Origin: Escherichia coli
GTDB lineage: Bacteria > Pseudomonadota > Gammaproteobacteria > Enterobacterales > Enterobacteriaceae
Strand: one strand, 5' to 3'
DNA length: 64,000 nucleotides
Assembly: GCF_041248615.1 (NCBI RefSeq)
Contig: NZ_CP158426.1
Shown: positions 12,001-15,000 of the stretch, piece by piece
Layout of the letters: each line of letters starts with the position of its first letter
Position numbering within the stretch: the first letter of the stretch is position 1
Made by a program: the position numbers

Positions 12001-15000
12001 GTGAATAAGTGGGATGGCCTGAGCCAGGAAGTGAAAGAGCAGGTGAAAGAAACGCTGGACTTCCGTCTGGGCTTTATCGATTTTGCTCGTGTGCATTTTA
12101 TCTCAGCCTTGCACGGCAGTGGTGTTGGTAATCTGTTTGAATCAGTACGTGAAGCGTATGACAGCTCCACCCGTCGTGTGGGGACCTCTATGCTGACGCG
12201 CATCATGACGATGGCTGTTGAAGATCACCAACCGCCGTTGGTACGCGGTCGTCGTGTGAAGCTGAAATATGCCCACGCTGGTGGTTATAACCCGCCGATT
12301 GTGGTGATTCACGGTAACCAGGTGAAAGACCTGCCTGATTCCTACAAGCGTTACTTGATGAACTACTTCCGCAAATCGCTGGACGTAATGGGATCGCCGA
12401 TTCGTATTCAGTTCAAAGAAGGGGAAAACCCGTATGCGAACAAGCGTAATACCCTGACGCCAACCCAGATGCGCAAGCGTAAGCGCCTGATGAAGCATAT
12501 CAAGAAAAGTAAGTAATCACTTATCTGGTTTCCCTTTCCACACGGAGAGGGAAACCGAATAACACGCGAGGAGTATTTATGGCACTCAACTGTCCAACCT
12601 GCAAAACCCCTCTCGAACGCAATGGCGAGACTGCCCACTGTGCAACTTGCGACAAAGACTTTACCGTCCAGGCACTTTGCCCTGAGTGTCATCAGCCGTT
12701 ACAAGTGTTAAAAGCTTGTGGTGCTGTGGACTATTTTTGCCAACATGGGCACGGTTTAATATCTAAAAAACGCGTTGAATTTGTTATTGCTTAATATCAT
12801 GTGAATATATTGTTTTATCATTTATATTTAATATGTGAATGGTAAAACAATCTGTTATTAGTGGAATAACTAATGTAATTGAGTGAAATCACTAATTTAA
12901 ATAATTAAGAATATATTTATTCTTTATGACATGCCTTTCTGAATAATCAGGGATACAATATTAAAGCTTATTTTTGACTGTATCATTGTCACAGGGAAAG
13001 TGCATGCTGCGATGGAAACGCTGTATTATTCTAACATTTATCTCTGGTGCTGCTTTCGCGGCACCAGAGATAAATGTTAAGCAAAACGAATCGTTACCTG
13101 ATTTAGGTAGCCAGGCAGCACAGCGGGATGAACAAACCAACAAGGGTAAATCGCTGAAAGAGCGCGGAGCCGATTACGTCATCAACTCCGCCACGCAAGG
13201 GTTTGAAAACTTGACCCCTGAGGCGCTGGAATCTCAGGCCAGAAGCTATCTGCAAAGTCAAATCATCTCAACCGCACAATCTTATATTGAAGACACTCTC
13301 TCTCCCTACGGTAAGGTCCGTTCGAACCTCTCCATTGGCCAGGGCGGCGATCTGGATGGCAGTTCCATCGATTATTTTGTTCCCTGGTACGATAATCAAA
13401 CCACTGTTTATTTCAGTCAATTTTCTGCGCAACGAAAAGAAGATCGTACAATCGGGAATATTGGTCTTGGGGTAAGACATAATTTTAATGAATGGTTATT
13501 GGGTGGAAATGTATTTTATGATTATGATTTTACCCGAGGACATCGCCGTTTAGGTTTAGGCGGCGAAGCGTGGACTGATTATTTAAAATTCTCTGGCAAC
13601 TATTATCATCCGCTTTCTGACTGGAAAGACTCTGAAGATTTCGGCTTTTATGAAGAACGCCCTGCGCGCGGCTGGGATATTCGTGCCGAAGCCTGGTTAC
13701 CTTCTTATCCGCAACTGGGGGGCAAAGTTGTCTTCGAGCAATATTACGGCGATGAAGTCGCCCTTTTTGGTACGGATAATTTGGAGAAAGATCCCTACGC
13801 GGTAACACTTGGACTGAATTATCAACCGGTGCCATTACTAACCGTTGGGGCGGACTATAAAGCGGGGACCGGAGATAACAGCGATGTCAGCATTAATGCC
13901 ACTCTTAATTATCAGTTCGGCGTTCCGCTAAAAGATCAATTGGATAGCGATAAAGTGAAAGCGGCTCACTCGTTGATGGGCAGTCGTCATGATTTTGTTG
14001 AGCGTAATAACTTTATTGTTCTGGAATACAAAGAAAAAGATCCGCTTGATGTCACCCTGTGGTTAAAAGCGGATGCCACCAACGAGCACCCTGAGTGCGT
14101 CATTAAGGACACTCCCGAAGCGGCCGTCGGGCTGGAAAAATGTAAATGGACCATTAACGCGCTTATCAACCACCACTACAAAATTGTCGCTGCGTCATGG
14201 CAGGCGAAAAACAATGCTGCCCGCACGCTGGTTATGCTGCGTATTTTCATGAAAGGAGATCACTCAATAACTTCCATCGAGATCGGGTAATAACATTTGA
14301 ACAGATCGCTGAATAACATCGATGGAGATCACTTTTGACTCATTTTGTTATTCAGTGATCTCCATCAATGTTATTGGAACTTCACAGGTGTGTTGATCTG
14401 TATCTTTTGCCATTCCGGTAAAGGATACCTATGCCAACAGTTCCAATTTCTATGAGAAAACTTAAAGAAATTCTTAGGCTTAAATACGGTGTTGGACTCA
14501 GCCATCGACAAATTGGTCGTAGTCTTGCAATCTCCCCTTCCGTTGTATCCAGATATGCTAATCGGGCGGCTCAACTTGGCATAAAGCAGTGGCCCTTACC
14601 TACAGGATGGGATGATACAAAACTAAAACATGCGTTCCTTCAGACCCAGGTTAAGATGAAGAAGCACTCTCTGCCTGACTGGGCTACAGTACACCGGGAA
14701 CTGCGTAATAAATGCGTGACGCTGCAGCTACTCTGGGAAGAATACTGTGAGCGTAATCCAGGCGGTTTTTACAGCTATAACCATTACTGCCGGATGTACC
14801 GTGAATGGCTCAAAACCACTTCACCATCAATGCGTCAGGTACATAAAGCTGGCGAAAAACTTTTCGTTGATTACTGTGGACCTACCGTTGGCGTTACCGA
14901 CCCTGAGACCGGAGAAATAAGAACTGCTCAGGTCATCGTAGCTGTTCTCGGGGCATCAAGTTACACATGGGCAGAGGCCACCTGGTCTCAGCAGCTTGAA

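What the first reader, a model, noticed from the sequence alone, without database searches (positions are those of the whole stretch)
13032..13079. 19-bp perfect inverted repeat embedded in the sinH signal-peptide codons
Arms taacatttatctctggtgc / gcaccagagataaatgtta are perfect with a 10-bp spacer. A 19-bp perfect palindrome is far beyond chance in 64 kb and sits inside coding sequence 28 bp after the start codon. It could form a strong mRNA hairpin just downstream of the start (translational control) or be a protein-binding or recombination site.
Basis: seen in the sequence. Interest (0 to 1): 0.45.

Follow-up and report, generated by a model that had tools for sequence, protein, structure and literature searches.

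The report
Conserved mRNA hairpin inside sinH start
The first codons of the E. coli adhesin gene sinH encode both a signal peptide and a 22-base-pair RNA hairpin; the hairpin has been preserved across the genus Escherichia by matching mutations in its two arms, so it is probably an undescribed control element for this virulence-associated gene.

Summary
The palindrome is real. Arms 13032-13050 and 13061-13079 are perfect, it is the longest hairpin-type repeat in the window, and shuffles reach only 9-12 nt. As RNA it extends to 22 bp with a 4-nt loop (-37 kcal/mol), starting at +29 of sinH, which an ISEc12 insertion has made a pseudogene in this strain.

Thirteen distinct Escherichia alleles keep the helix. 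In the alignment, 92.5% of cells are paired and six pairs change on both sides, some through amino-acid changes. One allele is a codon shorter and re-registers to a 21-bp stem. The upper stem also covaries in Pseudocitrobacter. Mismatches are mostly G·U on the sense strand, and sense RNA is more stable than antisense in 13 of 13 alleles. Synonymous sites are unusually conserved (0.84 against 0.645), and synonymous recoding destroys the fold (z about -3.5).

The element occurs only in sinH (1746 of 5426 E. coli genomes) and matches no Rfam family. It has no terminator tail and no frameshift site.

My verdict is a selected sense-strand mRNA stem-loop, not a protein-binding or recombination site. 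I infer, without a test, that it acts as a post-transcriptional brake, as an RNase III-length duplex, a ribosome barrier near the start, or both. It is a new member of a known kind.

The parts
12993..12997 (+). Shine-Dalgarno-like AGGGA, 6 nt upstream of the sinH start codon
   Evidence: Read from the sequence. AGGGAAA or AAGGA is kept at this position in the other Escherichia alleles. Its function is inferred.
13004..13006 (+). sinH start codon (ATG)
   Evidence: Translation from 13004 gives MLRWKRCIILTFISGAAFAAPEINVK.... RefSeq starts the CDS here (L001 position 3445 = window 13004).
13004..13060 (+). Codons 1-19, the predicted Sec signal peptide (basic RWKR, hydrophobic CIILTFISGAA, AFA|A cleavage motif)
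   Evidence: Translation. The cleavage site is inferred from the general AXA rule and was not tested with a predictor.
13026..13031 (+). 5' side of an optional lower-stem extension. Only 4 of 6 positions pair in this allele; all 6 pair (TTATGC/GCATAA) in the 500111/R32 alleles.
   Evidence: Alignment A3 columns 23-28 with 78-83.
13032..13053 (+). Left (5') arm of the 22-bp stem. Positions 13032-13050 are the perfect 19-nt DNA arm.
13054..13057 (+). Tetraloop UUUC. Other alleles have UUUU, UUAU or GUGU, and VE-T9 has ACUCC.
   Evidence: The loop sequence is not conserved.
13058..13079 (+). Right (3') arm of the 22-bp stem. Positions 13061-13079 are the perfect 19-nt DNA arm.
13081..13086 (+). 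3' side of the optional lower-stem extension. A13080 is bulged.
   Evidence: Alignment A3 columns 78-83.
13004..14236 (+). 5' fragment of sinH (inverse-autotransporter beta domain), truncated by the IS insertion
   Evidence: RefSeq annotation of the identical record. Homologues are SinH, with Pfam PF11924 precomputed.
14237..16818 (+). ISEc12 (IS21 family) insertion that interrupts sinH in this strain (istA 14431-15972, istB 15987-16733)
16819..17769 (+). 3' fragment of sinH (passenger domain)

Best explanation
The palindrome is a cis-acting stem-loop in the sinH mRNA (sense strand). It is a 22-bp helix with a 4-nt loop that begins at +29 and is written into the signal-peptide codons. Selection on base pairing has maintained it in the Escherichia lineage of sinH, and a shorter homologous stem exists in Pseudocitrobacter.

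Shown here: the helix exists, it is far beyond chance, and it is conserved with compensatory changes. Codon choice is tuned to it, and the pattern of tolerated mismatches fits RNA on the sense strand.

Inferred: it acts after transcription as a brake or gate on SinH synthesis. The helix is as long as the roughly 22-bp duplex that the RNase III dimer accommodates. An untranslated, refolded mRNA would therefore be a full-length RNase III substrate cut inside the coding sequence. A ribosome that has to melt the helix would sit with its P site at about codon 6 and would still cover the start codon, which would limit re-initiation. I rank RNase III cleavage first and the ribosome barrier second. 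The two are compatible, because frequent translation would keep the helix open and protect the mRNA.
For: - **Real and non-random.** The arms are perfect over 19 nt, the longest in the window, against 9-12 nt in shuffles. The RNA hairpin is -37.1 kcal/mol with z = -11.7. It is the most stable of about 1045 56-nt windows in each Escherichia sinH locus.
- **Covariation in Escherichia.** I aligned 13 distinct Escherichia alleles (A3). 92.5% of cells are paired, 6 pairs change on both sides, and 0 of 500 shuffles reach the observed covariation. With the partners slid by 1-3 columns only 33-49% of cells pair. RNAalifold finds the same helix independently.
- **Amino-acid changes are compensated.** E. 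albertii has AU/UA changed to GC/CG at two adjacent pairs through F->L and N->S.
- **One allele re-registers.** The VE-T9 allele is one codon shorter and has a different loop, yet forms a 21-bp stem.
- **Covariation in Pseudocitrobacter.** The upper stem is kept in Pseudocitrobacter with a different sequence in the same codon register (A4). 92.3% of cells are paired, 5 pairs change on both sides, and the covariation score is 0.244 against 0.101 in shuffles, 0 of 500.
- **RNA, sense strand.** The distinct non-Watson-Crick states in the core helix are 8 G.U-type, 2 A.C-type and 5 other. A U.G pair formed by two four-fold-degenerate sites is unchanged in 12 of 12 alleles in register. Sense RNA is more stable than antisense RNA in 13 of 13 alleles, by 5.6 kcal/mol on average.
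- **Synonymous constraint.** Where the amino acid is the same, the codon is identical in 0.84 of comparisons within the hairpin against 0.645 for the rest of the first 410 codons. Random synonymous recoding gives a mean of -18.6 against the observed -37.1 kcal/mol (z about -3.5; at most 1 of 300 recodings is as stable). The rare Ile codon ATA is invariant in the right arm.
- **Context for the mechanism.** The RNase III valley fits about 22 bp, and many in vivo cleavage sites lie in coding sequences (PMC6212723, read). For E. coli SinH (= IatB), LeuO raised the transcript 15-fold but no protein was detected, and the authors suggested that further regulatory factors might be missing (PMC6714894).
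Against: - No expression, cleavage or structure-probing data exist for this element. The direction of the effect (brake rather than stabiliser) is an inference.
- The helix starts beyond the roughly +15 edge of an initiating ribosome. Elongating ribosomes unwind stable helices, so a pure roadblock effect could be small (my own background knowledge, not checked against a source here).
- The cloned native gene gives surface-exposed protein when strongly transcribed from a plasmid (PMC6714894). The hairpin is therefore not an absolute block.
- The 8:2 excess of G.U over A.C states is only suggestive (one-sided binomial about 0.055), and the alleles are related.
- Salmonella, most Citrobacter and Superficieibacter sinH genes lack a significant hairpin. 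The element is therefore not required for sinH function in general.
- RNase III antideterminant rules were not evaluated.
Confidence: 0.6

Rival explanations
1. The same selected mRNA hairpin acts without RNase III. It would be a pure elongation or initiation throttle, with the first ribosome stalling at codons 5-7 and occluding the start codon. Alternatively it would be a transcriptional pause hairpin that lets the first ribosome catch up with RNA polymerase at the head of a long, H-NS/Rho-sensitive operon.
For: The position is constant at +29 (+23 with the extension) in all Escherichia alleles. That is within one ribosome length of the start codon. The upstream region is 27% G+C, which is typical of silenced horizontally acquired promoters, and LeuO activates transcription (PMC6714894). 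Weaker hairpins of 10-12 bp, too short for RNase III, sit at the same codons in Pseudocitrobacter faecalis, Salmonella and Citrobacter sp. FP75.
Against: A throttle or pause does not need 20 or more contiguous pairs, yet Escherichia alleles keep about 20-28 bp overall. No pause consensus or Rho site was examined. The effect of hairpins beyond the initiation footprint is usually modest (background knowledge).
Confidence: 0.15
2. The palindrome is a neutral by-product. Either it is a young inverted duplication, or it is a quasi-palindrome kept symmetrical by template-switch (hairpin-templated) mutation during replication, with no function for the RNA.
For: Templated correction can produce changes in both arms, and even matched indels, without selection (background knowledge). 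The complex VE-T9 re-registration looks like a multi-nucleotide event. Intermediate mismatched states exist in extant alleles: U.U in L165, A.G in E. whittamii, C.A in E. albertii.
Against: Synonymous sites in the hairpin diverge less between lineages than in the rest of the gene (0.84 against 0.645 identity). Arm-to-arm conversion does not predict this. The T.G mismatch at two freely variable four-fold sites has never been 'corrected' in 12 alleles. The mismatch spectrum is skewed towards G.U on the sense strand. The structure persists in the same register with a different sequence in another genus.
Confidence: 0.1
3. The selected mRNA hairpin acts positively. It could serve as a barrier that stabilises the 5' part of the message, or as an enhancer that holds the initiation region open or positions the ribosome.
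For: The hairpin locks up 48 nt that might otherwise pair with the ribosome-binding site. Codons 1-9 are also unusually conserved at synonymous sites (0.89). The native gene is expressible from a plasmid.
Against: No pairing between the arms and the SD/AUG region is evident. RNAalifold instead finds a 4-bp pairing of the start codon with AGCA just 3' of the helix. Protein was undetectable from the native locus even with 15-fold more transcript.
Confidence: 0.08
4. The element works at the DNA level. It could be a binding site for a dimeric regulator such as an H-NS/LeuO-type silencer element inside the gene, a cruciform, or a recombination site.
For: The DNA palindrome is perfect over 19 bp, and single-stranded DNA would fold at -23 kcal/mol. 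The inner core TTATCTCTGG/CCAGAGATAA is almost invariant. sinH transcription responds to LeuO.
Against: Six pairs change on both sides and keep complementarity rather than a motif. Pseudocitrobacter keeps the pairing with a different sequence. G.U-type mismatches dominate. The arms contain no match to the H-NS motif TCGATAAATT at 2 or fewer mismatches. The sequence occurs only in sinH, not as a repeated site. With a 4-10 bp spacer there is no segment to invert.
Confidence: 0.06

Closest known systems
RNase III-processed stem-loops in E. coli mRNAs: the rnc and pnp leaders, and sites inside coding sequences mapped transcriptome-wide (PMC6212723)
   Same: It is an intramolecular, nearly perfect duplex of about 22 bp in an mRNA, which is the length that fits the RNase III dimer. 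It lies inside a coding sequence, as many mapped sites do.
   Different: No cleavage has been shown. The mapping was done in K-12, which lacks sinH. This helix is encoded in signal-peptide codons and is restricted to one gene lineage.
mRNA secondary structures in the signal-sequence region that lower translation initiation (classical lamB signal-sequence mutants; recalled from memory, not checked here)
   Same: A hairpin within the codons of a signal peptide that affects the yield of an exported protein.
   Different: Those structures involve the Shine-Dalgarno or start region and arose in mutants. This one is natural, conserved, and begins at +29, outside the initiation footprint.
REP/BIME extragenic palindromes
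   Same: A stable palindromic hairpin of similar size in enterobacterial transcripts.
   Different: REPs are intergenic, occur in hundreds of copies and share a consensus. This sequence is intragenic and occurs only in sinH.
Intrinsic (Rho-independent) terminators and attenuators
   Same: A strong stem-loop in the early transcribed region.
   Different: No U-tract follows on either strand, and the terminator scan finds nothing.
Alphavirus downstream loop (DLP), a hairpin about 27-31 nt after the AUG of the subgenomic mRNA (recalled from memory)
   Same: Almost the same distance between the start codon and the base of a stable hairpin inside the coding sequence.
   Different: The DLP belongs to eukaryotic initiation and works by stalling a scanning 40S subunit. 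No homology or shared machinery exists. The analogy is positional only.

Membership tests
Any Rfam family (release 15) | A match to a curated covariance model at or above its gathering score | tested here: not met
   The only matches were sub-threshold generic miRNA-precursor models (26 bits against gathering scores of 70-95).
RNase III substrate (intramolecular) | A continuous double-stranded RNA helix of about 20-22 bp | tested here: met
   22 bp with no bulge in this allele. Other Escherichia alleles range from a 16-bp perfect upper stem plus a short lower stem in E1V33 up to 28 bp. The length criterion is taken from PMC6212723.
RNase III substrate (intramolecular) | RNase III-dependent staggered double cleavage leaving 2-nt 3' overhangs, and absence of antideterminant base pairs | not testable with these tools
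   This needs in vitro cleavage or a comparison of wild type with an rnc mutant in a sinH-positive strain. The antideterminant rules were not scored.
Conserved cis-regulatory RNA structure | Base pairs maintained by compensatory substitutions in independent lineages, above shuffled and slid controls | tested here: met
   6 pairs, 0 of 500 shuffles; 5 pairs, covariation 0.244 against 0.101, 0 of 500. RNAalifold.
Conserved cis-regulatory RNA structure | A demonstrated effect on expression | not testable with these tools
   No reporter or transcript data exist for this element. PMC6714894 reports only a mismatch between transcript and protein levels.
REP/BIME or other dispersed palindromic repeat (MITE) | Many copies per genome at different loci | tested here: not met
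   All matches in 1746 genomes lie in sinH. The second 'place' in a record is the palindrome matching itself on the other strand.
Intrinsic terminator | A G+C-rich stem followed directly by a run of U | tested here: not met
   One search finds no site. The flanks read AAGCAAAACG on the + strand and GAATAATACA on the - strand.
Programmed -1 frameshift stimulator | A slippery heptamer X XXY YYZ 5-9 nt upstream of the hairpin, conserved | tested here: not met
   The upstream sequence is CGC TGT ATT ATT C in E. coli and TAT ATA ACG C in other alleles. Only E. albertii has T TTT TTA, and there it abuts the stem.
Palindromic operator / protein-binding site | Conserved half-site sequence, with changes in one half not requiring complementary changes in the other | tested here: not met
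   Double-sided complementary changes at 6 pairs, and a different sequence with the same pairing in Pseudocitrobacter. The arms have no H-NS motif.
Site-specific inversion / recombination site | Inverted repeats flanking an invertible segment, with both orientations seen in genomes | tested here: not met
   Only 4-10 nt lie between the arms. All 13 alleles are collinear.

The most novel reading that the evidence does not exclude
The hairpin is a dedicated post-transcriptional gate for the SinH adhesin operon in Escherichia. The duplex would be cut by RNase III, or would stall the first ribosome over the start codon, unless translation is actively driven. This would explain why SinH/IatB protein is undetectable in culture even when transcription is induced, and it would make expression depend on a host-associated signal. 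A corollary is that RNA pairing, rather than protein function, has dictated several amino-acid replacements in the signal peptide and at the mature N-terminus.
Probability: 0.3. Interest if true: 0.65.

Novelty: new member of a known kind. Interest (0 to 1): 0.5.

Why it matters
SinH is an intimin-like adhesin and a vaccine candidate of extraintestinal pathogenic E. coli (PMC9937491). This sinH 5' region is present in about a third of complete E. coli genomes. Control of SinH expression is poorly understood: in the one regulatory study, inducing transcription did not yield detectable protein (PMC6714894).

A conserved 22-bp duplex 28 nt into the coding sequence is a concrete and easily mutated candidate for the missing post-transcriptional step.

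It is also a clean natural example of an RNA structure constraining a protein-coding sequence. Third codon positions pair with third codon positions. Rare codons are frozen. Some amino-acid replacements in the signal peptide are mirrored by replacements at the mature N-terminus to keep the helix. Anyone recoding sinH for expression or vaccine work would destroy the hairpin without knowing it.

Tried and rejected
- **Metagenome scan.** Most of the 120 loci were chance matches, and BLAST identified only nine as sinH. Those nine were still useful.
- **Rfam.** Nothing reached a gathering score.
- **Promoter, terminator and RfaH ops scans around sinH.** Nothing relevant was found.
- **H-NS high-affinity motif in the arms.** No match at 2 or fewer mismatches.
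- **Frameshift-stimulator idea.** Rejected, because no conserved slippery site exists.
- **A strong 5' hairpin as a general property of inverse-autotransporter genes.** Rejected. Across 59 related loci only Escherichia-type sinH and Pseudocitrobacter vendiensis stand out clearly. Several paralogues have rank 1-10 windows, but that is about what the size of the search region allows.
- **The strong multi-branch structure in Citrobacter sp. FP75 sinH (z = -3.8) as an independent analogue.** Not confirmed. A close relative carries two uncompensated changes in its long stem.
- **A weak same-register hairpin in Salmonella sinH (12 of 14 positions pairable, -14 kcal/mol, recoding z = -2.3).** It could not be supported by covariation. 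Five Salmonella loci are nearly identical, and one variant breaks a pair.
- **Literature searches for a described sinH hairpin.** None found.
- **Protein-structure tools.** Not used, because the question concerns nucleic acid.
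Full report
**Observation.** The window reads TAACATTTATCTCTGGTGC at 13032-13050 and its exact reverse complement GCACCAGAGATAAATGTTA at 13061-13079. A scan of the whole window for perfect hairpin-type inverted repeats with loops of up to 20 nt puts this one first, at 19 nt. Thirty Markov-chain shuffles reach only 9-12 nt. The repeat finder extends the arms to 22 nt (13032-13053 / 13058-13079) around a 4-nt spacer. The one non-Watson-Crick position is T opposite G, a wobble pair in RNA. Folded as RNA, the 64-nt segment forms a single uninterrupted 22-bp stem with a UUUC loop at -37.1 kcal/mol (z = -11.7). As single-stranded DNA it folds at -23 kcal/mol.

**Context.** The window is identical to the chromosome of E. 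coli NRZ14408. RefSeq annotates der, a yfgJ-like zinc-ribbon gene, then sinH, sinI and a very large adhesin gene. sinH starts at ATG 13004 and encodes MLRWKRCIILTFISGAAFA|APEINVK. The stem therefore begins at +29 and covers the hydrophobic core of the signal peptide, the predicted cleavage site and the first mature residues. In this strain sinH is a pseudogene. An IS21-family element, ISEc12, occupies 14237-16818 and splits the gene, so the hairpin is intact but the gene is dead here. The 300 nt upstream are 27% G+C. No sigma-70 consensus, terminator-like site or RfaH ops element lies nearby.

**Is it a repeated or known element?** No.
- A 141-nt query around the hairpin finds 1746 of 5426 complete E. 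coli genomes, always in sinH. The second hit per genome is the palindrome matching itself on the other strand.
- Rfam gives only sub-threshold matches to generic miRNA-precursor models.
- Literature searches found nothing on a sinH hairpin.

**Conservation within Escherichia.** I collected sinH 5' ends from E. coli genomes spanning 81-100% identity, from one genome per species and from metagenomes. This gave 13 distinct sequences, including E. albertii, E. whittamii and Escherichia sp. E1V33. All keep the helix at the same place.
- On alignment A3, 92.5% of pair cells are standard pairs, 6 pairs show changes on both sides, and none of 500 shuffles reaches the observed covariation. Sliding the partners by 1-3 columns drops pairing to 33-49%.
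- RNAalifold recovers the same 22 pairs without being told.
- At the Gly15/Ala20 third positions the pair is U-A, U.G, G.U or A-U in different E. coli alleles, with one U.U intermediate.
- E. albertii has replaced two adjacent pairs (A-U, U-A) by G-C and C-G through the amino-acid changes F12L and N24S.
- The C-G pair at columns 32/73 is U.G in two alleles and U-A in three.
- The 500111 and R32 alleles add six more pairs below a bulged A through I9M and Q27H.
- The VE-T9 allele is one codon shorter and has a different loop, but re-registers to a 21-bp stem.

**Conservation beyond Escherichia.**
- In Pseudocitrobacter (80-83% SinH identity) the upper 11-13 pairs exist in the same codon register with a different sequence (TCAGGCTCGG/CCGAGCCTGA). 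With these sequences added, 92.3% of cells pair, 5 pairs change on both sides, and the covariation score is 0.244 against 0.101 in shuffles, 0 of 500.
- Salmonella, Citrobacter youngae, C. gillenii, Superficieibacter and a divergent 'Escherichia sp.' allele have a different signal peptide and no significant structure over the whole region.
- Local folding of the 33 homologous nucleotides shows weak same-place hairpins in Salmonella, Citrobacter sp. FP75 and P. faecalis. Variation among Salmonella loci, and a relative of FP75, give no support for these.
- Among 59 inverse-autotransporter loci, only Escherichia-type sinH and P. vendiensis have the 5' hairpin as the clear extreme of the locus.
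- The long helix is therefore a lineage-specific elaboration of a shorter stem.

**RNA or DNA, sense or antisense?** A transition in a Watson-Crick pair gives either G.U or A.C with roughly equal prior probability.
- In the core helix the distinct non-canonical states are 8 G.U-type, 2 A.C-type and 5 other.
- A U.G pair formed by two four-fold-degenerate third positions (Ala16 GCU, Ala19 GCG) is unchanged in all 12 alleles in register.
- The sense RNA is more stable than the antisense RNA in 13 of 13 alleles, by 5.6 kcal/mol on average.
- The alleles are related, so these numbers are suggestive rather than decisive. They point to the mRNA rather than to DNA or an antisense transcript.

**Is the structure a by-product of the protein sequence?** No.
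- Random synonymous recoding of the same peptide gives a mean of -18.6 kcal/mol (sd 5.3) against the observed -37.1, with 1 of 300 recodings as stable. The result is similar for four other Escherichia alleles.
- Where two alleles share an amino acid, they share the codon in 84% of comparisons within the hairpin and 89% in codons 1-9, against 64.5% over the rest of the first 410 codons.
- The rare Ile codon ATA in the right arm is invariant.
- The axis of symmetry places third codon positions opposite third positions (columns i + j = 105). That is why so much of the compensation could be synonymous.

**Mechanism.** What is shown is a selected sense-strand RNA helix. What it does is inferred.
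- It is not a terminator, because no U-tract follows it.
- It is not a frameshift stimulator, because no conserved slippery site precedes it.
- It is not a dispersed repeat.
- It is not an operator-like site, because pairing rather than sequence is conserved, and no H-NS motif is present.
- Its length matches the roughly 22-bp duplex that fits the RNase III dimer, and RNase III cuts many coding sequences in vivo (PMC6212723).
- Its base at +29 means that a ribosome beginning to melt it has its P site near codon 6 and still covers the start codon. This follows from the general footprint dimensions of the ribosome, which are background knowledge.
- I therefore propose a post-transcriptional brake. 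When the message is not being translated, the refolded helix exposes it to RNase III. When it is translated, the helix spaces or slows the first ribosomes.
- This fits the published observation that LeuO raises iatB (= E. coli sinH) transcript 15-fold without detectable protein, whereas a plasmid giving 144-fold transcript does yield surface protein (PMC6714894). That observation has other possible explanations.
- Rivals are a ribosome or pausing role without RNase III, a stabilising role, a neutral quasi-palindrome maintained by templated mutation, and a DNA-level site. My confidences are 0.15, 0.08, 0.10 and 0.06.

**Verdict.** The element is an undescribed but conventional kind of thing, a conserved cis-acting mRNA stem-loop embedded in coding sequence. 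The covariation is unusually clear, and the experiment to test it is obvious.

Noticed in passing
window 18811-18877 (sinI to large adhesin gene intergenic region): Two consecutive strong hairpins lie here. The first is CAGCATTCCC-GCAA-GGGAATGCTG followed by TTTCC. The second is a perfect 35-nt palindrome, CATATTTTGCTTAATCC-C-GGATTAAGCAAAATATG, the second-longest perfect inverted repeat in the window. Together they fold at -41.7 kcal/mol (z = -8.9). Salmonella has the same layout (L088 4575-4640), with the core TTTGCTTA/TAAGCAAA conserved and the flanks covarying. About 920 E. coli genomes carry this region at 99% identity or more, and about 750 have a 60-80% variant.
   Followed up: partly
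window 14237-16818: ISEc12 (IS21 family; istA 14431-15972, istB 15987-16733) is inserted in sinH, so the gene is a pseudogene in this strain. Only this one record among 5426 genomes has the insertion at this site.
   Followed up: yes
L212 (E. coli ESDR8) about 403-703: An IS1 element is inserted 9 nt downstream of the sinH hairpin (AAGCAAAGCG|GGTAATGACTCC...). It truncates sinH after codon 28 and leaves the hairpin intact. In O145:H28 strain 12E115 (L211), sinH is annotated as frameshifted. sinH is therefore inactivated repeatedly.
   Followed up: no
L210 / L133 (E. coli VE-T9 allele), codons 10-25: This is a one-codon-shorter allele (ISAATPAAEIN instead of ISGAAFAAPEIN). A multi-nucleotide change shifts the register of the upper stem and replaces the loop (ACUCC), yet a 21-bp helix is kept. 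The change looks like a single complex, possibly templated, event.
   Followed up: partly
window 13005-13008 with 13080-13083: RNAalifold pairs UGCU of the start codon region with AGCA immediately 3' of the hairpin, closing a three-way junction. It is only 4 bp, nearly invariant in E. coli and broken in E. albertii, and may be chance.
   Followed up: no
window 12804-12856: An imperfect inverted repeat (24-nt arms, 79% complementary, 5-nt spacer) lies in the 27% G+C intergenic region between the yfgJ-like gene and sinH, where the sinH promoter must lie.
   Followed up: no
L017 (Citrobacter sp. FP75) 1527-1607: The sinH 5' coding region forms a different, strong multi-branch structure: a 15-bp outer stem CTTGCTTGTGTTATT/AATAACATAAGCGAG enclosing two hairpins, at -38 kcal/mol with recoding z = -3.8. 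A close relative (L215) has two uncompensated changes in the outer stem.
   Followed up: partly
L088 (Salmonella enterica) 1537-1569: A weak hairpin lies in the same codon register as the E. coli stem. 12 of 14 positions can pair, four of them as G.U. It folds at -14.0 kcal/mol against -5.0 for the antisense strand, with recoding z = -2.3. Five Salmonella loci show no covariation.
   Followed up: partly
L012 (E. albertii) about 1521-1528: E. albertii has the heptamer T TTT TTA in frame directly at the base of the hairpin. This classical slippery sequence is absent from the other alleles.
   Followed up: no
L008 (MAG 'Collinsella sp.') and L051 ('Rhizobium wenxiniae'): These short contigs carry E. 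coli-type sinH at 94-98% identity. They are almost certainly E. coli contamination or mis-binning in those assemblies.
   Followed up: no
whole window: Matches to TCGATAAATT (H-NS high-affinity motif) at 2 or fewer mismatches are more frequent than in shuffles: 85 against 54.8 +/- 7.9. None lies in the hairpin arms.
   Followed up: no
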